A DNA stretch of 62,983 nucleotides, filler included, from an uncultured Methanosarcinales archaeon (GTDB lineage: Archaea; Nanobdellota; Nanobdellia; Woesearchaeales; CALCXY01): NCBI GenBank assembly GCA_964385185.1. It is 18 parts of 18 records of this genome, joined end to end, with 100 filler letters (N's around TTAATTAATTAA, not from the genome) between each part and the next. Parts side by side here need not be neighbours in the genome. Positions count along the whole stretch, not along the records: positions 57,935 to 60,429 come from CAYLOA010000066.1; 17 more parts are not named here. The stretch is one strand, 5' to 3'. Under the pieces are notes generated by a model. That model was given only the letters and a program-made list of their open reading frames with translations, ran no database searches and was not told where the DNA came from. Positions 1-60,429 of this stretch are shown one piece after another; the first letter of the stretch is position 1, and each line of letters starts with the position of its first letter. Both the position numbers and the translations under genes were made by a program.

Positions 1-2
1 TG

Positions 3-83
3 ATTGATGATCTCAGGGTGAGAAGAATGGACACATTCAAGGATGGCAAAATAGAGATTGGAATAGAAATCATAGAGTTATGA
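3..83 (+). CDS. 3' end of a probable RusA-like Holliday junction resolvase (partial)
   Basis: Frame reads IDDLRVRRMDTFKDGKIEIGIEIIEL*, resembling the RusA C-terminus; stop overlaps the next ATG; typical position upstream of phage packaging genes. Confidence 0.4.
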   Translation: MDDLRVRRMDTFKDGKIEIGIEIIEL

Positions 84-1174
84 AACAACAAGTTAAGCGA
101 AGTAAAATCAAGGAAAACCCCAATAATCCTAGAATAATCAAAGACCACAAATACTATTTGCTTGTTAAGTCACTGCAAGAGTTCCCTGAAATGCTAAAGC
201 TGAGACCTATTGTAGTTGATGAAGATATGATGGTGCTTGGTGGTAACAAGAGATTGAAGGCAAGTAAAGATGCAGGGCTTAAAGAGGTGTGGATTGAAAT
301 AGCTGAAGGGCTTACTGAAGCACAAAAAAAAGAATTTGTAATTAAAGATAATACAAATTATGGAGAATGGGATTGGGACATATTGGCAAATGAATGGGAT
401 AGCGTTCAACTTACTGAATGGGGTGTAGATGCATGGCCAAATCAAGATGATATAAAAGTAGAACCGATAGCAGGGCTGACTGATGACGATGATGTTCCAG
501 AGGCAGAAGAAAGTATATGCAAGGCAGGGGATATATGGGTACTGGGCAACCACCGCTTGTTGTGCGGGGATGCGACAAAGAAGGGAGATGTTGAACGATT
601 GATGGATGGGCAGAAGGCAGATATGGTGTTTACAGACCCGCCTTATGGGATGAATGCTGTTAAAAATAGTGGTGTATTATCAAAGAAATATAAAGATATT
701 ATAAATGACGATTCAATTAATGTTGCGATTAATTCGTTTGAATTATTAGATGATGATATTCCTGCAATATGGTGGGGGGCTAATTATTATGCTAACATAT
801 TACCAAATAAACCACACTGGATAGTATGGGATAAGAACAATGGTGGAAGCGACCAAATGGATTGTGAATTGGCTTGGACAAACCTAAAAGGAGTTACTCG
901 TCAATTCACTCTTTCGTCAGAAAAGAAAAACAGAGTACATCCAACACAGAAACCAGTTGAATTAATTAATTGGTCATTAGATAAAGTCAAACCACAAACT
1001 GTATTAGACCTATTTCTTGGCTCTGGCTCAACACTAATCGCCTGTGAAAAGACAGGAAGAAAATGCTATGGCATGGAGATTGATCCGCATTACTGTGATG
1101 TAATAGTTAAACGCTGGGAAGAATTCACCGGGAACAAGGCGGAAAAGTTAGATGGCAAGACCGAAAAAGTATAA
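80..1174 (+). CDS. Phage ParB-N domain / DNA amino-methyltransferase fusion
   Basis: N-terminal NPNNPR...RPIVVD...GGNKR (ParB-like); LGNHRLLCGD; catalytic DPPY; HPTQKP; SAM-binding DLFLGSGS. Confidence 0.9.
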   Translation: MKQQVKRSKIKENPNNPRIIKDHKYYLLVKSLQEFPEMLKLRPIVVDEDMMVLGGNKRLKASKDAGLKEVWIEIAEGLTEAQKKEFVIKDNTNYGEWDWDILANEWDSVQLTEWGVDAWPNQDDIKVEPIAGLTDDDDVPEAEESICKAGDIWVLGNHRLLCGDATKKGDVERLMDGQKADMVFTDPPYGMNAVKNSGVLSKKYKDIINDDSINVAINSFELLDDDIPAIWWGANYYANILPNKPHWIVWDKNNGGSDQMDCELAWTNLKGVTRQFTLSSEKKNRVHPTQKPVELINWSLDKVKPQTVLDLFLGSGSTLIACEKTGRKCYGMEIDPHYCDVIVKRWEEFTGNKAEKLDGKTEKV

Positions 1175-1463
1175 CATCGACAAAAAACAAGTTCAAAATC
1201 TCGCTAGATTTGGCTGTACCAATGTCGAAATAGCAGATTTTTATGGGTGTGATGAAAGCTTAATCCGGCACAGTTATTCCGAATACCTGACAAAAGGGAG
1301 ATCAGAGCAGAAATTACGATTAAGGCAACTTCAATGGGCATCTGCTGAAAAGGGAAATATCGTAATGCAGATATTTCTGGGAAAGAACATTCTGGGTCAA
1401 ACCGACAAGCAAGAAATAGCTTTAGATGCTGATATGAGTTTGGAAGTTCAATTCATAGGATAG
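1152..1463 (+). CDS. Probable terminase small subunit (HTH)
   Basis: MARPKK start, HTH-like GCTNVEIADFYGCDES, IFLGKNILGQTD tail; immediately upstream of the large subunit. Confidence 0.75.
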   Translation: MARPKKYNIDKKQVQNLARFGCTNVEIADFYGCDESLIRHSYSEYLTKGRSEQKLRLRQLQWASAEKGNIVMQIFLGKNILGQTDKQEIALDADMSLEVQFIG

Positions 1464-2671
1464 TGGAAAACAAACGTGGTCGTATAAAATTATCAAAAGC
1501 ATTTAGGCCATTATTTAAGCCCAAAAGATATAAGGTTTATTACGGTGGTCGAGGTGCTGGTAAGTCATGGTCGTTTGCTTATGCCTTATTGATTATTGCT
1601 GCAAGAAAAAAAACCCGTGTGTTGTGTACAAGAGAAGTTCAGGCATCATTGCGGGATTCAGTACATAAGTTGTTAAGTAGTTGTATAGAAGCTAACAATT
1701 TACAAAAGTTTTTTACAGTCACAAGAGATGGTATCTGCGGAAACAACGGTTCAGAATTTATCTTTCACGGTCTAAAACAAGACCCAATGCAGATTAAGTC
1801 ATTAGAAGGTGTAGACATTTGTTGGGTAGAGGAAGCACAGAGGATTAGTAGTGAGTCATGGGATATATTAGTTCCGACGATCCGTAAGAAAGGTTCAGAG
1901 ATATGGGTGAGTTTTAATCCAAATTTAGAATCAGACCCGACTTACCAAAAGTTTGTAATCAACCATAGAAATGATTGTTTTTTAAGGAAGGTTAATTATG
2001 ACGAAAACCCTTTCTTAGGTGATGAGTTAAAGGCTGAACTGAACTATCTGAAAGCAGAGGACTATGACCATTATAAGCACATTTGGGAAGGAGACTGTAA
2101 AACCTTCTCAGTGTCGCAGATATTCAGACACAAATTCCATATAACAGATTTTGTTGCCCCTGAAGGAACTGTGTTTTATTATGGATTAGACTGGGGTTTC
2201 TCTCAAGACCCTACAGCGGTGTTAAGATGCTATGTTTGTGATAATATCTTATACATAGATTATGAAGCAGGCGGTAGGCAGGTAGAATTAGACAACACTT
2301 ATAAGCTAATAGATTCCATACCAGAAGCAAAAAAATACACAATAAGGGCAGATTCAGCTAGACCAGAGAGTATCAGTTTTATAAAAAGACAAGGTTATAA
2401 AATAGAATCAGTGTATAAATGGAAAGGTAGTGTTGAGGATGGGATTGAATTCATTAGAAGTTTCAGGCAAATTTATATACATTCAAGGTGTTTAGAGGTG
2501 GCAAGTGAGTTTGTTAAATATAGTTACAAGGTAGATAGAGCAACAGGTGATGTTTTGCCACATATAGTCGATGCACATAATCACTTCATAGACGCATTAA
2601 GGTATGCACTTCAGCCAATGATAAAGTGTAAAAACACAAAACCATTAATTTCAAAGGTGGTAGGGATATGA
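1463..2671 (+). CDS. Terminase large subunit (PBSX/Terminase_3 type)
   Basis: Walker A YGGRGAGKS, Walker B CWVEEA, SFNP, nuclease GLDWGFSQDP, ADSARP, NHFIDALRY. Confidence 0.95.
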   Translation: MENKRGRIKLSKAFRPLFKPKRYKVYYGGRGAGKSWSFAYALLIIAARKKTRVLCTREVQASLRDSVHKLLSSCIEANNLQKFFTVTRDGICGNNGSEFIFHGLKQDPMQIKSLEGVDICWVEEAQRISSESWDILVPTIRKKGSEIWVSFNPNLESDPTYQKFVINHRNDCFLRKVNYDENPFLGDELKAELNYLKAEDYDHYKHIWEGDCKTFSVSQIFRHKFHITDFVAPEGTVFYYGLDWGFSQDPTAVLRCYVCDNILYIDYEAGGRQVELDNTYKLIDSIPEAKKYTIRADSARPESISFIKRQGYKIESVYKWKGSVEDGIEFIRSFRQIYIHSRCLEVASEFVKYSYKVDRATGDVLPHIVDAHNHFIDALRYALQPMIKCKNTKPLISKVVGI

Positions 2672-3972
2672 TTGAAAGTAGACATCCACAGTACAAGAGT
2701 TTAGTCCAACAATGGAAAAGATGCAGAAATTGCTATCAAGGTGAGGATGCGGTTAAAGCTCAAGGAACAGATTATCTCCCAAAATTGTCCCGGCAAAGCG
2801 ATGATTCATATTTTGCATATAGGCAACGTGCGTCATTCTTTAATGCGGTCAAGAGGACTGTAGATGGGTTGACCGGGGCTGTAATGAGGCTTAATCCTGT
2901 GATTGAGAATGGTAATGATGAGTGGACTAAGGACATAACTGGAACAGGTGTGCATCTGAACGATTTTGTATTTTATTTGTTATCAGAGCAAATATTGATG
3001 GGCAGGCAGGGAATATTAGTAGATCATAATGGAGACAGACCCTATTTGACGGGCTACACGACAGAACAGATACCCAACTGGATGGATGATCGGATTATTC
3101 TCAAGGAGGAGTATAGAAAAACCAACCCTGATAATTTTTATGCCAGTGAGTATGAGACTCAATATCGAGAGTTATTGAAAGAAGATGGTAAATATCTGGT
3201 AAGGATATGGAAAAAAAATGCGGAACAAGTGTACAAGGTAGTTGAAGAGATATTACCAAGCCAGAGAGGGAAAACATTGTCCAGTATTCCCTTTATCGGG
3301 CTTTCAGTTGATGGTATTAACCTCAAGCCAGAAGTGCCTCCAATGTTAGGGTTAGCAGATATGAACCTCTCGCATTATAGGACGAGTGCAGACCTAGAAC
3401 ATGGAAGGCATTTTACCGCTTTACCCACTCCTTATGTAACAGGGGTAGATGCTGAGTCTGAGCTAAGTATTGGAGCAGAATCAGCATGGGTGCTACCAGA
3501 CCCATCAAGCAGGGCAGGGTATTTAGAATTCAGCGGGCAGGGATTACGCGCTTTAGAGACAGCGATGGATCAGAAGCGTTCCATGATGGCATCACTTGGG
3601 GCGCAATTACTTGAAGGGCAAAAAGCAGGAGTGGAGGCAAGCGAAACACTCAGGCTTAGACAAAATAGTGAGATGTCTGCCCTAATGAAGGCGGTTAAGA
3701 CTGTAGAAAGTGGCTTAAACCATGCGTTTGAATATATGACAGAGTGGGAAGGTGGCAACCAAATAAGTGTATCTATTAACACCGATTTCTCAGATACAAA
3801 GATTGACCCACAAGTAATGACAGCGTTAATGCAAGCATGGCAATCTGGAGCAATCAGTCACGAAACATTCTTATGGAACTTGAAGCGAGGGGAGATTCTA
3901 CCTTCTGGGGTGGAGATAGAGGATGAGCGAGATCGCATTAATCTTCAGGCAGGTATTATTTTGGAAGATTAG
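2668..3972 (+). CDS. Phage portal protein (DUF4055 type)
   Basis: YLPKL...Y..RASFFNAVKRTV, NLSHYRTSADLEHGRH; directly follows terL. Confidence 0.85.
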   Translation: MIESRHPQYKSLVQQWKRCRNCYQGEDAVKAQGTDYLPKLSRQSDDSYFAYRQRASFFNAVKRTVDGLTGAVMRLNPVIENGNDEWTKDITGTGVHLNDFVFYLLSEQILMGRQGILVDHNGDRPYLTGYTTEQIPNWMDDRIILKEEYRKTNPDNFYASEYETQYRELLKEDGKYLVRIWKKNAEQVYKVVEEILPSQRGKTLSSIPFIGLSVDGINLKPEVPPMLGLADMNLSHYRTSADLEHGRHFTALPTPYVTGVDAESELSIGAESAWVLPDPSSRAGYLEFSGQGLRALETAMDQKRSMMASLGAQLLEGQKAGVEASETLRLRQNSEMSALMKAVKTVESGLNHAFEYMTEWEGGNQISVSINTDFSDTKIDPQVMTALMQAWQSGAISHETFLWNLKRGEILPSGVEIEDERDRINLQAGIILED

Positions 3973-3974
3973 CG

Positions 3975-4154
3975 GTGGATAAGTTCAACAAGGTAGAAGT
4001 TCATGCGTCTGCTGTATCGTCAGAGTGCTTTGAAATGACAATAGATGATAATGAAATACGCAACATTGTCGAATGGGGCGTTGGTGGCAAAGCTGGTGAA
4101 GTGACTACGGTCACTATTAAATTTATTGCTGACGTATATCATGACGACTGTTAA
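3975..4154 (+). CDS. Small hypothetical phage protein (59 aa, not in ORF track)
   Basis: GTG-started ORF MDKFNKVEVH...IADVYHDDC* fills the gap between portal and head gene. Confidence 0.55.
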   Translation: MDKFNKVEVHASAVSSECFEMTIDDNEIRNIVEWGVGGKAGEVTTVTIKFIADVYHDDC

Positions 4155-5253
4155 TGATAAAGCGTTAGACCAAATTACAGGTCATAGCGTTGATTTGCTA
4201 AGAGTTGAAGCAGGACTGCGGGAAAAAATATTAGATGAGCTGGATGTGCTTGCGGTAACTCTTGTTAAAAAGTTGGAAAAAGCAAAATTACACGAAGTTG
4301 AAAAAACAGCAACACAGAGGAAGAGACTTGAAAAACTGCTCTCTCAAACAAAAAAAACAATAAGCACAGCATACAACGATATTGATAAAATAGAGGATAA
4401 AGAACTTATTGATTTAGCGAGGGTAGCAGAGGCACAGGCTGTAATGACGATTAATACAGCAATCAAGGCCAGCACTTTAAGTGTTGGAATGAGCAAAGAG
4501 ATGTTAGAGTCTATAGGAAAGGACACCTTAATTACGGGCGCACCAAGCAAAGAATGGTGGCAACGTCAGTCCCAGACATTTGAATCAACGTTCAAGGATA
4601 CAGTCCGGCAAGGGCTGTTGTCTGGAAAAGTAACGTCAGAAATTGTAAAGGAGTTGATGGGAACAAAAACCGCAAGGTATAAAGACGGTAAACTAGAACC
4701 AAGGCGCAGGGGGGCAGAGGCATTAGTTCGAACATCGGTACAGGTGGTAGCAAATGAGGCAAGGTTGCAGACCTATGAAAATAATAATGACATCGTAAAG
4801 GGAATTGAGTGGGTATCCACTCTTGATTCTCGCACCAGTCCTATCTGCCGGGTACTCGATGGGCTGATGTGGGACAACGAGCGCAAGCCCATAAATCATT
4901 CAAGGCACTACCCCGGCGCAACCGCTCATTGGAATTGTAGAAGCACACAAGTTCCCATTCTCAAGTCATGGGAGGAGTTGGGGGCAAAAAAGAAATTTAA
5001 GGAGATACCAGAAGGAACAAGAGCCAGCATGGATGGACAGGTATCTGCTAAAGAAGGTTATGAGGATTGGCTGATACGACAAGGTAAGGAAAAGGGCGAA
5101 AAGTTCCAGAAGGACATTCTTGGTAAAGGCAAATGGGAGTTGTGGAAAGCGGGCAAGGTTGGGTTTACTGATTTAGTGGATCAGACAGGCAATCCGGTTT
5201 CGTTAGGGGTGTTGAGAGGGAAGTTAGGGATTGAGAAAAAACAGAAGAAATGA
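4141..5253 (+). CDS. Minor head morphogenesis protein (SPP1 gp7 / Mu gpF family)
   Basis: WVSTLDSRTSPIC..LDG and HWNCRST motifs, RASMDGQV; follows portal. Confidence 0.9.
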   Translation: MTTVNDKALDQITGHSVDLLRVEAGLREKILDELDVLAVTLVKKLEKAKLHEVEKTATQRKRLEKLLSQTKKTISTAYNDIDKIEDKELIDLARVAEAQAVMTINTAIKASTLSVGMSKEMLESIGKDTLITGAPSKEWWQRQSQTFESTFKDTVRQGLLSGKVTSEIVKELMGTKTARYKDGKLEPRRRGAEALVRTSVQVVANEARLQTYENNNDIVKGIEWVSTLDSRTSPICRVLDGLMWDNERKPINHSRHYPGATAHWNCRSTQVPILKSWEELGAKKKFKEIPEGTRASMDGQVSAKEGYEDWLIRQGKEKGEKFQKDILGKGKWELWKAGKVGFTDLVDQTGNPVSLGVLRGKLGIEKKQKK

Positions 5254-5347
5254 CCTAAACAACGGAAAAGTTTGAAAAGCAGATACTTTTTACCAAATTA
5301 CAGCAGGAACAATATCAGATGGTTTAACGGGCAATCGGAGACTAAAA

Positions 5348-5376
5348 ATGAGCGAAGAAATCACATACACAGCAGA
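5348..5376 (+). CDS. Start of next head gene (likely scaffold), truncated
   Basis: GGAG RBS followed by ATG (MSEEITYTA); product inferred from position only. Confidence 0.3.
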
Positions 5377-55316: not shown

Positions 55317-56996
55317 TAAAATTCTTACTTTTTGAAGGGGGGTTTCCTAAATTTGTGAAAGGGGCGTTTTTTATTCGATAAAAAAGTTGGGGCAAATAGA
55401 TACTTTAATATATAAGTTAAACTAAATTAGAAACAATCATTATAATTAAAGAAAAGGCCATACAATTTCATATGAAGATGTAAATTAAAAGATGAAAAAG
55501 ATACTATTAATATTAGGTTTGTTATTCTTCATTTTGAGCACCAATGTATTGGCTTATGATCTAGGAGATTATCCTTCTCCCTTTATGGATGATTTAGCTA
55601 ATTCTATAGTATCTGTAGGAGATAGTTCTCCTGCTTCTGATGTTGTTGCTGCAGTAGATATACAAAATAGTATTAGTGATCAATTAAAAGTAGAAATTGC
55701 AGCAGAAGTTATGAAAGATAGAAATAAAAACATAATAAGTATAGGCAATCCTTGTAATAATCATTTAGCAACATTAATATCTGACGAAACAGAATGCCAT
55801 TTTAATCTCGAGCCAAATCAAGCAACAATAAGGTCTTATGAATTCAATAATTTTGTACATATCCTTGTGATAGGTTACTCAGATTTGGATACTCGCAGGG
55901 CTGCTAAAGTATTAGCCAAATATCAGGATTATGGTCTAAAAGGCAATGAAGTATGCATCCTTGGATCTTTTAGAGAACCACAAGTTATAGAAGGAATATG
56001 CGATGATATTGGAGAAATAGTGCCTGTAATCCCTATTGAGGGTTTTTCGCCAGAAGAATGTCAAGATTCAGATGGTGGGAAGAATTATCATGAGAAAGGA
56101 TTAGTTACTTGGGCAAATAAAAATGAAAAAACAGAGCTAGACGACTGTTGTATGGAATCTGCACCTACGGGATGTTCTGATTCAGGCCCATTATTGATGG
56201 AAAGATTTTGTACAGGGAAATATTCAAGCAGTTTCGAGGTATACTCGTGCCCAGAGGGATGTGTAGTTGGTGCATGCAAAAAGATAACTGTAAAATGTGG
56301 TGATGGGATTTGTCATAAGAAATATAATGAAAACAACCCTAGACATTCTAATTATTGTCCTGCAGACTGTGGAGTTCAAACAACAGGTTGTGGTGATGGG
56401 ATCTGTGATGAAACTAAAGGAGAAGATTCCAATAATTGTCCCTCTGATTGTGATGCAGTAGTGAATACGTGCGAAAATGGACAAAAGTTAGATTTTGAAT
56501 GTCCGGATGGAATTTTTGTTTCATGGTGTAGCTGCTTAAACAACGAATGGAGATGTGTGAATTCTCCACAAACCTTATGTAAAACAGAAAGGATTTGTGA
56601 GGGTTGCTTGGATGAGAACAATGTTTGCATACCAATAAGTACAAGAACTGAAACTCAATATTGTGACATAGATCACAGTTTTAAAAACCAAAAATCAGAA
56701 GACATGAATTGCATCAATAATTACGAGTGTTCAACAAACATATGTGTAAACAACAAATGTATAAGTTCAAGTTTCATTCAAAAGATAATCGACTGGTTTA
56801 AAAATCTATTTGGATAATTTTTTTCTATAGATTTTGTTATTTGCCCCAATCTCAATGTATTTCATAAAGGCTCTACGAGCTAGATAAAAAACGCCCCTTA
56901 ATGTATTTTACTGGAACGGGCTTACGCCCTTGAAAACGGAAACCCCCTAACTAAAGTCTCGGCTTCGCCTCGAATTAATTGAAAGTAAGAATTTTA
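55317..56996. repeat. Four nested inverted-repeat blocks enclosing one gene
   Basis: 55317-55331/56982-56996, 55338-55347/56938-56947, 55359-55374/56884-56899 and 55387-55398/56838-56849 are exact reverse complements. Confidence 0.8.
55492..56817 (+). CDS. Secreted S-layer-domain protein with Cys-rich repeats
   Basis: Signal peptide; VGDSSPASDVVAAVDI, IISIGNPCNN, GYSDLDTRRAA (S-layer N/C domain); C.DSDGG, CGDGIC x2; IIDWFKNLFG tail. Confidence 0.75.
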   Translation: MKKILLILGLLFFILSTNVLAYDLGDYPSPFMDDLANSIVSVGDSSPASDVVAAVDIQNSISDQLKVEIAAEVMKDRNKNIISIGNPCNNHLATLISDETECHFNLEPNQATIRSYEFNNFVHILVIGYSDLDTRRAAKVLAKYQDYGLKGNEVCILGSFREPQVIEGICDDIGEIVPVIPIEGFSPEECQDSDGGKNYHEKGLVTWANKNEKTELDDCCMESAPTGCSDSGPLLMERFCTGKYSSSFEVYSCPEGCVVGACKKITVKCGDGICHKKYNENNPRHSNYCPADCGVQTTGCGDGICDETKGEDSNNCPSDCDAVVNTCENGQKLDFECPDGIFVSWCSCLNNEWRCVNSPQTLCKTERICEGCLDENNVCIPISTRTETQYCDIDHSFKNQKSEDMNCINNYECSTNICVNNKCISSSFIQKIIDWFKNLFG

Positions 56997-57216
56997 CTTC
57001 TCCTTCGCTAACGCTCAGTCGACCACGTTGCACTTTCCTTCGACTGAGGACTCACTTACGTTCGTCAGCTCGGTCTCAGTCAGGGTATTTAACAGGCGTT
57101 AGACGGCTCGGCTCTTGCAGAGCCTCGACCCATATTTTGCTCGTCAGCTCTCAACCCTCCAGCTCTGTGAGCTACGGCTGGCCAAGAAATTAAGTAAGTA
57201 AGTCGAAGCCCAAAAA

Positions 57217-57724: not shown

Positions 57725-58095
57725 TATATCACCCTAATGGCATATTAATATAGTATTAATATATAAAGTTTTTGGTTTTTGGGCTCCGATTTCGTTAGAT
57801 CTTGGCCAGCCTCCGCTCACGAGGGAGTGTTGGANNNNNNNNNNNNNNNNNNNNNNNNNNNNNNNNNNNNNNNNNNNNTTAATTAATTAANNNNNNNNNN
57901 NNNNNNNNNNNNNNNNNNNNNNNNNNNNNNNNNNATCTCTTTGCATGTCTTTAATTACTGTAGAAAGATCTCTTTCTCTTAACAAATAGGTATTTTTCAG
58001 AAAACTCACAAATACCACTATTACGTAGTAAAATCAACGAAACTTTTATAAACAGGGCACGTTTTGACATTTTATACGACAAATTCATAATAAAA

Positions 58096-58245
58096 ATGAA
58101 GAAAAAAATTAGTATCAGTATTGAAGAAGAGACTATAACTTTACTAGAAATGTTTGTAAAAGAAAGTATTTTCCGTAATAAAAGTCACTTTGTAGAACAT
58201 GCTATCACGCAATTTATGAGGGAAAATAAGAATGACAGAAACTAA
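58096..58245 (+). CDS. Ribbon-helix-helix DNA-binding protein (49 aa, not in ORF track)
   Basis: MKKKISISIEEE...FRNKSHFVEHAI; overlaps the start of the AAA gene. Confidence 0.8.
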   Translation: MKKKISISIEEETITLLEMFVKESIFRNKSHFVEHAITQFMRENKNDRN

Positions 58246-59551
58246 TCCATTCACAGAAATTGCTGCTATTGAAGCACCGACGTACAAAAACACGCGAACG
58301 TTATTGACACTTGGTGGTGTCCCATTCACAATGTGGGATGTTGTTAAAGCTAGTCTTGGCGCTCGATTAAATTTGGGTTTATTAGGGGAAGCTGGCGGCG
58401 GTAAGTCTCAGTTAAACGAAGATATAATTAGTCTTTTTGGAAATAATGCCACCCGTACACGGGGAAGAAATGATCTTGATGTTAAAGGGTTGTATCGACA
58501 GCTTAACTTTTCAGCATTAAAAGAAGCCATGGATGAAGGTTCTACAGTTTCACAAAAAGCACTTATTGAAGCTACTTCTCAAATTTACCGCCCTCTAGTT
58601 GCAGTTGAAGAGATCAACCGTTGTATGGAAGTTGTGCAGAACCAGTTTTTCAATATTTTTGAAGGTTTTATAGAATTAGAGAATGGTGAGAAGTACCTTT
58701 TAGGTGGAACTCAAATGGAAACATTTAGAGATTTTGATGGATCTGAATGGACACAAAATATTCGTTATTCTGTAGGTGTTTGGACAGCAAACTTTGGCAA
58801 CGGAGAATATGCGGGAGCTGTTTCCATGGATAAAGCCATGAAAGAAAGATCTCATGTAATAATTGACGTTGATAATTGTTACCCTTCAGCACCAGACTTA
58901 GATGGTATAATTTTAACTAGTGGTGGTGAAGTTCGATTAAAAGGGCAAGAAGACCCAGCAGACTTGACTGATACTTTTGCAGGAGCTTTTGCCTATTTAA
59001 AACAAACTTCTCATACTCCTAATCCCCAGGAACTGGGAGAAGAATTACTGTTGAATAGATATTTAGTTTTAGGATTGGATTATATTCCTTGTTCGGCAGC
59101 TGATGATAGCAAACGAATTATGAAAGGGGTCTGGCCTGCAAAAGCAGAAGAAGATGATATTGGTAATAATGACGATGAAAAATTAATGTACAGAATGATT
59201 TTTCCAACTTCTGTAAGAGGAGCAATGACTGTAATGTCTTTAGCAAGATCATTAAGGGAATATGCTCATGCAAAAAGTGGAGAACGTCCAACTGTTCTTG
59301 ACAGTGTTATTGAAAGTTTTAAGTTAGTAGGTGCATATTCGGGTATGGTTAGAAATACTCAGAGAATAAGAGAAAATTTTGTCGGCAACCCTTACCGTGC
59401 TGCTTGTAAAGTTGGAGATGTAATTAGTGGAAGATTAGAAGGACAGCGAGACTTAATAGAAGCAATTGCTCATTCAAAAGCAACTGAAACACCCTTGACA
59501 AGAGAAGTGAAGAATGCTTGTGTTGGAGAGTATGCCTGTTTCTTGGAATGA
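58232..59551 (+). CDS. MoxR-like AAA+ ATPase
   Basis: Walker A GEAGGGKS, Walker B VEEINR, VQNQFF, TAN, MDKAMKER, SVRG. Confidence 0.85.
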   Translation: MTETNPFTEIAAIEAPTYKNTRTLLTLGGVPFTMWDVVKASLGARLNLGLLGEAGGGKSQLNEDIISLFGNNATRTRGRNDLDVKGLYRQLNFSALKEAMDEGSTVSQKALIEATSQIYRPLVAVEEINRCMEVVQNQFFNIFEGFIELENGEKYLLGGTQMETFRDFDGSEWTQNIRYSVGVWTANFGNGEYAGAVSMDKAMKERSHVIIDVDNCYPSAPDLDGIILTSGGEVRLKGQEDPADLTDTFAGAFAYLKQTSHTPNPQELGEELLLNRYLVLGLDYIPCSAADDSKRIMKGVWPAKAEEDDIGNNDDEKLMYRMIFPTSVRGAMTVMSLARSLREYAHAKSGERPTVLDSVIESFKLVGAYSGMVRNTQRIRENFVGNPYRAACKVGDVISGRLEGQRDLIEAIAHSKATETPLTREVKNACVGEYACFLE

Positions 59552-59555
59552 TACG

Positions 59556-60353
59556 ATGACTCCTAAAAATCCTTGGAAACATGTAAAAGTTGATCCCGCT
59601 AGGTTGGAAAATAATCGCTTTTTAAATCCAACCGAGCCTGTGCCTCCTACACCTAGTGTTGATCCGGTTTCTGAACCAATAACTGGAGCATATATTTTAA
59701 TGCCTAAAACTACTACTGAAGTTCAGGGGATACATGCTCTGAGAAAAGCGTGCGAAGCAGAAAGTAATTCTGCTCATCCACAATTTCCAAGAGATGATGG
59801 CAGCAGAATTTATCGTCCCTTAACTTTTAAAGAAGATATTGAAGCAAGGGTAAATGATTATGAAAGTAATACTGGTAATGATGAACGTTTAAGACTTTTC
59901 AATCGTTGGCTTAATTCTTGCACAGCAGTAGTTTACAAAGCAGGTACTACTAAATTTAAGATTATTCCCCTCTCACCCGAATTAGTTACTCTTCCAGAAG
60001 ATTTTTCTGATGCCTATTTTCCTATTGATTATGATGCAATTGCTGGTACAGAATTAGACAGAAATGGTGCAGTTTACAATACTTTACTAGCAAAGAGTGA
60101 TGTTTTAGATCACCCTGCTTGGAGAGCAGCAGTTGAGGACGATGTTGATTTGTTAAGAACATACGCTGACATTGTATTTACTGAAAGATCTGCTGATAAA
60201 CAAATGGCTTTTTGGACAAGAAACCAACCTGCAAATGATGAATTAAGGGCGTTGTATGTTAGCAGTCTTAGCAGCAGTTCAAGTGCTAGTGGCGATGGCA
60301 ATCTAGATGACGACGGGTCCTTCCTCCGAGTAGCCCAAGAGAGGACGCCGTAG
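59556..60353 (+). CDS. Probable DGR target (variable) protein with CLec-type C-terminal VR
   Basis: C-terminus ELRALYVSSLSSSSSASGDGNLDDDGSFLRVA built from NNY codons; downstream hairpin. Confidence 0.7.
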   Translation: MTPKNPWKHVKVDPARLENNRFLNPTEPVPPTPSVDPVSEPITGAYILMPKTTTEVQGIHALRKACEAESNSAHPQFPRDDGSRIYRPLTFKEDIEARVNDYESNTGNDERLRLFNRWLNSCTAVVYKAGTTKFKIIPLSPELVTLPEDFSDAYFPIDYDAIAGTELDRNGAVYNTLLAKSDVLDHPAWRAAVEDDVDLLRTYADIVFTERSADKQMAFWTRNQPANDELRALYVSSLSSSSSASGDGNLDDDGSFLRVAQERTP

Positions 60354-60358
60354 GCGTC
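60344..60358 (+). promoter_or_regulatory. DGR-type cis-acting hairpin downstream of the VR
   Basis: GACGCC-GTA-GGCGTC. Confidence 0.65.
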
Positions 60359-60374
60359 GCATGAGAAATAAAAA

Positions 60375-60429
60375 ATGACTCCTAAAAATCCTTGGAAACA
60401 TGTAAAAGTTGATCCCGCTAGGTTGGAAA
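60375..60429 (+). repeat. Exact 55-bp repeat of the target gene 5' end; start of a second paralogue (truncated)
   Basis: Identical to 59556-59610 (MTPKNPWKHVKVDPARLE). Confidence 0.85.

What the first reader, a model, noticed from the sequence alone, without database searches (positions are those of the whole stretch)
60241..60358. Probable DGR variable region with GTA-loop hairpin
Seen: the gene end reads AGC AGT CTT AGC AGC AGT TCA AGT GCT AGT GGC GAT GGC AAT CTA GAT GAC GAC GGG TCC TTC. The Ser/Asp/Gly/Asn codons at presumed variable sites are all NNY, as expected from A-to-N (mostly A-to-G) mutation of AAY. A GC-rich tail and GACGCC-GTA-GGCGTC follow. Known: DGRs mutate template adenines into C-terminal CLec-fold VRs, and archaeal DGRs have GNA-triloop hairpins 3' of the VR. 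Inference: the template reads roughly NNLNNNSNANGNNNLNNNG. No RT or template repeat is in this window, so this is a remote target or the cassette is off-contig.
Basis: partly seen in the sequence, partly recalled or inferred. Interest (0 to 1): 0.8.

Follow-up and report, generated by a model that had tools for sequence, protein, structure and literature searches.

The report
Hypermutated plug-in receptors for archaeal ATPase
The flagged stretch is the variable tip of a gene that a reverse-transcriptase cassette rewrites at adenines in what is likely a tiny marine archaeon, and the first 25 residues of its predicted lectin-fold protein are predicted to plug into a neighbouring ATP-driven motor, so it likely acts as one of several swappable, ever-changing receptors that would feed captured proteins to a motor-protease machine.

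Summary
The bin holds no template (TR) or RT. A near-identical metagenome contig (L011) continues the cassette: vWA/HExxH gene, second target, RT-16 RNA, TR, RT. The window VR differs from that TR at 13 of 13 sites, all TR adenines, and the TR reads exactly as guessed. Other samples vary at the same adenines. The target is predicted to have the AvpA-type CLec fold (Z 18.7). The cassette is off-contig, not a remote target; the published triloop is GRA, not GTA.

Beyond the finding: the target sits in an AAA+/vWA-peptidase operon of Nanoarchaeia. Arrays of unrelated binders (CLec, LRR, WD40, beta-helix) there share a locus-specific N-terminal tag. Tags follow the AAA/vWA tree while the bodies are swapped. 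A controlled model docks this tag on the ATPase lid (0.65, best control 0.00). Best reading: hypermutated plug-in receptors for an ATP-driven unfoldase-peptidase; the substrate is unknown. Whether the contig belongs to this bin is doubtful. This scan noted the tagged-array layout before on other genomes; I found no paper describing it.

The parts
57935..57988 (.). 54 bp at the contig start that also occurs about 1.2 kb past the TR (after the RT) in run X1, and with another continuation in X3/X4: likely a direct repeat flanking the cassette
   Evidence: tables 5, 7, 8; no second copy in G000; boundary role inferred
58096..58245 (+). 49-aa ORF overlapping the ATPase start; ribbon-helix-helix-like by eye (label recalled, not from a call)
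   Evidence: translation; no hit in PADLOC or NCBIfam
58232..59551 (+). AAA+ ATPase, 439 aa, AAA_5/MoxR-like; Walker A GGKS 56-59, Walker B EEIN 126-129; lid residues 262-272 and 407-429 predicted to bind the tag
   Evidence: Pfam AAA_5 E 9e-4, below cut-off; PF07728 precomputed on most of 54 homologues, one named MoxR-like
59556..60353 (+). DGR target gene, 265 aa, no transmembrane segment
59556..59633 (+). N-terminal tag (residues 1-26, NPWK type), shared by paralogues with different bodies; predicted ATPase-docking motif
   Evidence: (paralogues diverge behind 59634)
59634..59675 (+). proline-rich, length-variable linker (residues 27-40)
   Evidence: alignment A3; lowest pLDDT block
59676..60335 (+). 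predicted AvpA-type C-type-lectin domain (residues 41-260)
   Evidence: AF2 pLDDT 93; 5IOO Foldseek E 9e-8; VIA Z 18.7, rmsd 3.0, 188 aligned, next hit Z 5.7
60246..60329 (+). variable repeat; 13 AAY-derived codons, 15 codons variable in principle (about 2e16 protein variants)
60330..60339 (+). IMH (GTAGCCCAAG); differs from the TR's IMH* at 3 of 10 sites and is the exact reverse complement of the 5' end of the RT-16 RNA in L011
60344..60358 (+). 6-bp hairpin with GTA triloop over the stop codon
60375..60429 (+). first 55 bp of a second, tandem target paralogue (identical to 59556-59610); contig break
   Evidence: joint 60374 to 59556 in run X4

Best explanation
The stretch is the variable repeat of a diversity-generating retroelement target whose predicted C-type-lectin domain is likely carried by a 25-residue N-terminal tag onto the lid of the adjacent AAA+ ATPase, making it one of several interchangeable, hypermutated receptors that would deliver whatever they bind to an ATP-driven AAA+/vWA-metallopeptidase machine for unfolding and cutting. 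Shown: VR/TR pairing with adenine-only differences, variation between samples, cassette order (ATPase, tandem targets, vWA/HExxH gene, target, RT-16 RNA, TR, RT; pieced together from C66, L011), tags shared by unrelated bodies, tags tracking the ATPase/vWA tree. Predicted: CLec and vWA folds, tag-lid contact. Inferred from MoxR/vWA family knowledge: a hexamer that could display up to six receptors, substrate capture by the MIDAS site, an active zinc peptidase. Guessed: the prey is foreign (viral or host) protein met in the cytoplasm. My odds by step: DGR VR 0.97; tag docks on the ATPase 0.75; receptor-for-proteolysis role 0.55.
For: DGR. Fold: (residues 1-40 lie outside the CLec domain). Layout: of 36 vWA loci of 8 kb or more, 22 are in my curated tagged set; 13 of these 22 have an RT, against 1 of the 14 others. 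Bodies include LRR, WD40 and PMP beta-helix repeats: 10 of 25 scanned had repeat-family Pfam hits and 15 none. Tag similarity follows vWA similarity given the body (Mantel r 0.40, p 0.0005), body does not given the tag (r 0.03, p 0.35; 30 loci). Tag groups need the minimum number of changes on the vWA tree (9 of 9, 14 of 14); body groups need 4 extra. Tag clades have UFBoot 99-100 in both trees. Tag copies show 86 synonymous against 84 non-synonymous variants, ratio 0.26. ESMFold2 model: 0.65 against best control 0.00; the mark was reached by 116 of 157 solved and 2 of 215 mismatched pairs; runs agree in at least 94% of contacts; partner pLDDT at least 69. Named contacts are all on the ATPase (168, 262-272, 407-429). 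These lie in the three ATPase windows that tracked tags best, run beforehand. HExxH is present in 51 of 53 and DxSxS in 51 of 53 vWA proteins; vWA fold Z 16.1. Only 3 of 103 tagged proteins have a hydrophobic window of 1.6 or more.
Against: No substrate, activity or expression was measured. The complex job used my own alignments and three chains, unlike the calibration. It left out vWA residues 276-602 (the MIDAS domain) and had no control with a tag from another clade. At whole-protein level the partial Mantel test favoured vWA (r 0.21, p 0.0015) over the ATPase (r 0.11, p 0.11). Predicted interface residues are less conserved within the clade than the rest of the lid (0.57 against 0.72). The tagged set was curated by eye, loci are kin, and motif anchors bias the dN/dS estimate downward. 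The same CLec family also occurs without a tag beside it: no close ATPase match in 5 of 5 genomes tested, 4 of which carry such targets; only 8 of 31 other genomes with a target match have a vWA match. CLec, LRR and beta-helix folds are common in surface adhesins (own knowledge). No fold match covered the HExxH domain. No PADLOC hit.
Confidence: 0.55

Rival explanations
1. The tag is a client address: the AAA+/vWA-peptidase pair is a dedicated chaperone or loader that recognises tagged proteins, perhaps clips the tag, and assembles or exports them as variable adhesins for host attachment.
For: A MoxR plus metallopeptidase-vWA pair is proposed for virion assembly and processing in jumbo phages (PMC7824862, passage). 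The first 50 residues of the vWA protein, next to the HExxH helix, also track tags (partial 0.40). The bodies have adhesin-type folds. Host attachment is the usual proposal for DPANN targets.
Against: The model names tag contacts only on the ATPase, almost all on the lid and none on the peptidase domain that was in the same job. There are almost no hydrophobic segments. No export or pilus gene recurs in the operons printed. Unrelated bodies would have no common anchor once the tag is cut.
Confidence: 0.22
2. A signalling switch like the VMAP ternary conflict systems: ligand binding by a tagged sensor activates the ATPase, which switches on the peptidase against the cell's own proteins (dormancy or abortive infection) rather than against the bound ligand.
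For: DGR-diversified CLec domains are coupled to MoxR and vWA in cyanobacteria and gammaproteobacteria, with this mechanism proposed (PMC7159879, PMC10907252, passages). The cassette looks accessory: lower depth than contig C47 and a flanking repeat.
Against: I saw no VMAP, iSTAND or separate effector gene in the operons (by eye, no profile). The vWA protein has a fixed architecture of about 550-690 aa in most loci with no variable effector.
Confidence: 0.15
3. An ordinary DPANN DGR that sits in an ATPase/vWA operon; the shared N-termini are by-products of gene duplication and recombination with no protein role.
For: Copies within a locus are often identical at DNA level at the 5' end. The target family also occurs without the machine.
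Against: Synonymous excess in tags. Tags are conserved across genomes with unrelated bodies (WIN-L048 tag 0.55, body 0.03; L002-L073 tag 0.50, body 0.03) and replaced on similar bodies (WIN-L002 body 0.61, tag 0.14). Controlled docking model.
Confidence: 0.08

Closest known systems
DPANN/Nanoarchaeota DGRs and AvpA (Paul 2015 PMC4372165, passages; Handa 2016 PMC5006420, parts 1-2 of 4; PDB 5IOO)
   Same: TR/VR with AAY codons, IMH/IMH*, triloop hairpin in the gene end, RT, same CLec subclass (Z 18.7, 12% identity).
   Different: AvpA starts with the CLec domain and has a 46-residue C-terminal tail; here a tag and linker precede the domain. The loop is GTA, not GRA. There are several tandem targets per TR, no Avd-sized ORF between last target and TR in L011 or L002, and an AAA+/vWA operon.
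DGR-associated MoxR-vWA (VMAP) ternary conflict systems (Kaur 2020 PMC7159879; Dore 2024 PMC10907252; passages)
   Same: MoxR-type ATPase, vWA protein and DGR-diversified CLec in one locus.
   Different: There the CLec/FGS is mostly fused to the vWA protein, a VMAP or iSTAND is the third part, and hosts are multicellular bacteria. [quoted passage not shown] Here the binders are separate, tagged and of several folds.
CPR DGR targets with CLec fused to an AAA ATPase (Paul 2017; paper not held, known only from Dore's summary)
   Same: Variable CLec attached to an AAA ATPase.
   Different: Here the attachment is predicted to be non-covalent, through a tag, which would allow many receptors per ATPase.
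Jumbo-phage MoxR plus metallopeptidase-vWA pair (Iyer 2021 PMC7824862, passage); NorQ-NorD and midasin vWA domains (fold hits 9QH8, 8QL1)
   Same: AAA+ partner with an N-terminal HExxH and a C-terminal MIDAS vWA domain.
   Different: No tagged array or DGR is mentioned in the passage read; this family was not found in IMG/VR.
F-box/SCF logic of eukaryotes (recalled analogy, not tested)
   Same: Short common N-terminal docking motif plus exchangeable LRR, WD40 or lectin substrate-binding domain.
   Different: No homology claimed; no ubiquitin ligase genes seen; diversification here is by reverse transcription.

Membership tests
Diversity-generating retroelement | TR/VR pair differing only at TR adenines | tested here: met
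   13 of 13 differences at TR A; the TR comes from L011, whose target is 94% identical in DNA, not from the bin
Diversity-generating retroelement | RT gene linked to the TR | tested here: met
   RT starts about 80 bp after the TR in L011; RVT_1 E 3e-24 for the L002 homologue; absent from G000
Diversity-generating retroelement | adenine-specific variation between lineages | tested here: met
   14 of 15 VR positions with a non-A letter in other runs are TR adenines; one listed difference elsewhere in 2,495 bp; contigs only, no raw reads
Diversity-generating retroelement | IMH/IMH* and 3' hairpin | tested here: met
   hairpin not significant by energy alone
Diversity-generating retroelement | Avd accessory gene | tested here: inconclusive
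   no ORF of 70 aa or more on the cassette strand between last target and TR in L002 or L011; no Avd profile search was run
Diversity-generating retroelement | RT in the DGR clade of the RT tree | not tested
   no RT tree built; best NCBIfam hit group II RT, below cut-off
AvpA-type CLec variable proteins | AvpA-subclass CLec fold with C-terminal VR | tested here: met
   predicted model; Z 18.7, rmsd 3.0, 188 of 209 aligned
DUSEL4-type archaeal DGR | GRA triloop hairpin | tested here: not met
   loop is GTA
MoxR AAA+/vWA pair | MoxR-clade ATPase | tested here: inconclusive
   AAA_5 below cut-off, PF07728 on homologues, no PDB match by profile; helix-2 insert not checked
MoxR AAA+/vWA pair | linked vWA protein with MIDAS | tested here: met
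   D413-S415-S417, T502, D525 conserved in 106 sequences; fold; gene in L011, not in the bin
VMAP/iSTAND/FtsH/beta-propeller ternary conflict systems | conserved third component and effector fused to vWA | tested here: inconclusive
   none seen by eye in printed operons; no VMAP profile was run; not filed as a member
Zincin-like metallopeptidase | HExxH plus third ligand, zincin fold, activity | tested here: inconclusive
   H88, E89, H92, D142 invariant in 106 sequences; no fold hit for this domain; activity not testable here
RT-16 RNA (RF03019) | Rfam gathering score | tested here: met
   56.9 bits against 50, full model, L011:2693-2916

The most novel reading that the evidence does not exclude
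An adaptive protein-destruction system in nanosized archaea: an ATPase ring carries a repertoire of plug-in receptors, exchanged by gene shuffling behind a clade-specific docking tag and diversified by reverse-transcriptase hypermutation, and feeds whatever they catch to a vWA-linked metallopeptidase. This is F-box logic joined to antibody-like diversification in a prokaryote, and it could be reprogrammed by fusing the 25-residue tag to any binder.
Probability: 0.35. Interest if true: 0.92.

Novelty: new variant of a known kind. Interest (0 to 1): 0.77.

Why it matters
What DPANN DGR targets do is open. Roux 2021 (PMC8144416, passage) notes that they lack membrane or other known domains and leaves their role to be established. 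Dore 2024 sets DPANN DGRs apart from conflict systems. This locus ties such targets to a specific machine and names residues to mutate on both sides (tag W7, V10, V12; ATPase 268-269, 413-417). If right, a short tag couples any binder to an ATP-driven remodeller or protease, with clade-specific and possibly orthogonal tag-ATPase pairs. The VR by itself is an ordinary new member of a known class.

Tried and rejected
TR or RT in the own genome: none by blastn, tblastn, PF00078 or a 16-sequence RT profile. The one weak PF00078 hit lies in an unrelated 276-aa ORF of L001.

Remote tagged genes in G000: none.

Target family against Pfam, NCBIfam, PADLOC and the PDB sequence profile: none. vWA family against Pfam (25 members) and PDB profile: nothing credible. 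Viral contigs: 0 confirmed of 72 and 0 of 16 candidates.

My generic TR detector gave false pairs on the repeated tags of L033 and L032; these were discarded. A general search for leader sequences complementary to IMH worked only in this target family, not in the L036 or L066 types. In one search the first 7 IMH bases were matched by construction, and positions 8-9 do not favour the leader over IMH* (19 against 22 of 28). An aLRT of 13 for the NPWK clade was a label shift on re-rooting; the unrooted value is 100. IQ-TREE timed out.

Co-abundance with the bin was not supported. Read mapping on the TR/RT contig was not obtained, so the presence of the RT in the same samples rests on one contig. 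The ESM Atlas search for the target did not complete. Paul 2017 is not held.

Literature searches without a description of the tagged array in their listings. The Nanobdellota genome preprint 10.64898/2026.05.13.725050 has no occurrence of DGR, MoxR or vWA.

Full report
Setting. The window is a chain of short contigs joined by N spacers; 57935-60429 is contig C66 of G000 (2,495 bp). It holds a 49-aa ORF (58096-58245), a 439-aa AAA+ ATPase (58232-59551) and a 265-aa gene (59556-60353) whose end is the finding. It stops 55 bp into a second copy of that gene's start. Named homologues of the target and ATPase come mostly from Woesearchaeota or Nanoarchaeota records. The 20 runs that hold the stretch are mostly marine, seawater or vent metagenomes, from 17 studies.

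The observation. Codons and hairpin are as described. G000 has no TR, RT or vWA gene. A pattern scan of metagenome contigs gave 6 loci. One, L011, carries a target 94% identical in DNA, with the same start, IMH and hairpin, preceded by a 602-aa gene and followed by a TR (2916-2999) and an RT. The window VR differs from this TR at 13 of 84 sites, all among the 31 adenines (P 3e-7), all to G. The L011 VR differs at 10 adenines.

Other samples. In runs X1-X4, differences concentrate in the VR: 21 positions there and one elsewhere. One of the four X1 contigs is probably the TR itself (16 differences, then about 1.28 kb), so I counted only non-A letters: 14 of 15 such positions are TR adenines. In X1 the depth is about 6 on the ATPase and 22 on the shared target body, and three VR contigs sum to 22. 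This roughly suggests four copies, though the tool warns that depth is no copy number. X4 joins 60374 back to 59556, and X3 runs from the hairpin into the start of the L011 vWA gene. The cassette is therefore ATPase, tandem targets, vWA gene, target, TR, RT, broken by its repeats. A named Woesearchaeota genome shows the whole order on one contig, with four VRs differing from one TR only at adenines (L002).

Caveat on the bin. C66 is typical of G000 in tetranucleotides (28th percentile of 460 chunks). But contig C47 of the bin has depth about 25 in X1, 24 in X2, patchy in X3 and almost none in X4, while the cassette has about 6, 3, 3 and 3. The cassette is either an accessory island in part of the population and in relatives, or C66 (or C47) is misbinned. 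The 54 bp at the contig start recur behind the RT in X1, which fits a flanked island.

Fold. AlphaFold2 on 90 sequences gave pLDDT 93. Residues 41-260 match the archaeal DGR protein AvpA (Foldseek E 9e-8; VIA Z 18.7, rmsd 3.0, next hit 5.7). Residues 1-26 and a proline-rich linker lie outside the domain. The 602-aa partner has invariant H88-E89-H92 and D142 and a complete MIDAS motif in 106 sequences, and a C-terminal vWA fold (Z 16.1). Its N-terminal domain found no fold match.

The wider system. The target profile matched 32 of 401 genomes of the order, the vWA profile 27 of 401, and 30 of 401 genomes of the class. I fetched 72 regions around the stronger matches. Of 53 loci with a near-full vWA gene, 36 are 8 kb or longer; 22 of these are in my hand-curated tagged set, and two more (L051, L074) show shared starts that I did not curate. 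An RT lies in 13 of the 22 and in 1 of the other 14. A TR matching tagged genes was found in 12 of 32 curated loci (22 VRs). Genes around the ATPase and vWA genes begin with the same 20-28 residues: 15 in L033, 10 in L047, 6 each in L032, L043 and L070. Their bodies differ: this CLec family, other VR-bearing families, LRR, WD40 and PMP beta-helix repeats.

Tags follow the machine. Across 30 loci, tag similarity follows vWA similarity after removing body similarity (r 0.40, p 0.0005); body similarity does not after removing tag similarity (r 0.03, p 0.35). The window's target and L002's share the body (0.61) but not tag (0.14) or machine (0.15). The window and L048 share tag (0.55) and machine (0.66) but not body (0.03). 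Tag groups show no homoplasy on the vWA tree and body groups need four extra changes; the clades are well supported in both trees. Tag copies carry a synonymous excess (ratio 0.26, biased by my motif anchors). Loci are related and the set was chosen by eye, so the p-values overstate.

Docking model. ESMFold2 with the ATPase, vWA residues 1-275 and tag residues 1-34 scored 0.65 against a best control of 0.00. The mark was reached by 116 of 157 solved and 2 of 215 mismatched pairs, counts that hold only roughly for this job. Runs agreed in at least 94% of contacts and partner pLDDT was at least 69. Tag residues 6-25, including the invariant W7 and N20, touch ATPase residues 168, 262-272 and 407-429; no contact to the peptidase domain is named. 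The three ATPase windows that tracked tags best in an earlier analysis (376-425, 151-200, 226-275) contain these residues. They are clade-specific (identity 0.10 in other clades against 0.21 for the rest of the lid) but less conserved within the clade (0.57 against 0.72). No solved complex of this family was found by profile, so a pass from memory is less likely. The model supports binding and does not show it; the MIDAS domain was not in the job.

How it likely works. The RT copies the TR RNA with errors at adenines and the cDNA replaces the VRs of several targets (established DGR mechanism; signature shown here). Each target would hang by its tag and linker from the lid of a hexameric ATPase, a non-covalent version of the AAA-CLec fusions reported in CPR bacteria (via Dore 2024). 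By analogy with MoxR/vWA pairs (Kaur 2020 passages), the vWA MIDAS would grip the captured protein while the ATPase pulls, and the HExxH domain would cut. The last steps and the prey are inference. A loader for adhesins and a self-directed switch remain real rivals.

Known and new. The VR is a new member of the DPANN DGR class with an AvpA-type fold, differing in its GTA loop (PMC4372165, passages; PMC5006420, parts 1-2 of 4). MoxR, vWA and DGR together are known from multicellular bacteria (PMC7159879, PMC10907252, passages), and MoxR with peptidase-vWA from jumbo phages (PMC7824862, passage). I found no paper on separate tagged receptors in DPANN (searches, listings only). Paul 2017 was not available, and supplements that I did not see may list such loci. 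I noted the tag pattern. A later look-up showed that this scan had reported the layout on at least seven other genomes; those notes are not independent support. What this locus adds from my calls is the TR-confirmed VR with variation between samples, the tag-versus-body swap test and the predicted ATPase-lid site.

Side result. The region upstream of the TR is the Rfam RT-16 RNA. Weinberg 2017 (PMC5737381, passages) only speculated that further RT motifs serve DGRs. In 8 of 8 DGRs of this family examined, its 5' segment is complementary to IMH*, with mismatches, and exactly to the first 7 bases of the VR's IMH. In BPP-1 the primer strand comes from downstream of the TR (10.1101/2023.10.23.563531, passages). 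A primer or guide from upstream is a lead only, since the core bases are invariant and show no covariation.

Verdict. Observation confirmed, interpretation supported and extended. New variant of a known kind; interest 0.77.

Noticed in passing
L011:2693-2916 and window 60330-60339; also L002, L012, L016, L019, L022, L030, L062: RT-16 RNA precedes the TR. Its 5' segment is the reverse complement of the VR's IMH (10 of 10 in L011) and pairs imperfectly with IMH*. It may prime reverse transcription or guide target pairing from upstream; the core is invariant, so there is no covariation proof.
   Followed up: partly
window 60246-60329: All 13 substitutions are A to G. Across 22 VRs the spectrum is G 177, T 80, C 4, giving about 0.006 for 13 of 13; one biased event or an assembly mosaic. 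The rarity of A to C is itself notable.
   Followed up: partly
window 57935-57988: Repeat also seen behind the RT in run X1; open on the minus strand for 18 codons; possible integration-site duplication. L002 and L036 have a tyrosine-integrase gene beside the cassette.
   Followed up: partly
L033:4543-17526 (G072): 15 genes with one tag and bodies including LRR, WD40 and degenerate CLec around one ATPase/vWA pair, with no RT in the 20 kb fetched.
   Followed up: partly
L047, L055 (G344); L040, L041: Arrays of at least 10 plus 5 tagged proteins of one unknown family, and tagged PMP beta-helix proteins, beside vWA genes.
   Followed up: no
L045, L075, L077, L083-L087: Related ATPase-vWA pairs lying side by side without a detected tagged array; a sister group that may show the ancestral role.
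   Followed up: no
L023-L028 (G282), L017-L021: Dispersed, untagged members of the same CLec family, six in one genome, likely remote DGR targets.
   Followed up: partly
P0121 Atlas neighbours: Look-alike HExxH/vWA clusters occur in Asgard archaea, Bacteroidota and Myxococcota; whether they have tagged arrays is untested.
   Followed up: no
L010:509-1168, L013:188-847: A small two-gene pair (about 82 and 135 aa, toxin-antitoxin-like by eye) is inserted on the opposite strand between tagged genes.
   Followed up: no
window 56860-57210: GC-richer non-coding stretch with short inverted repeats behind a cysteine-rich, S-layer-like ORF (55492-56817; S_layer_C E 3e-4, below cut-off).
   Followed up: no
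window 1-5376: In X1 and X2 contigs skip 82 to 1150, a variable 1-kb segment.
   Followed up: no
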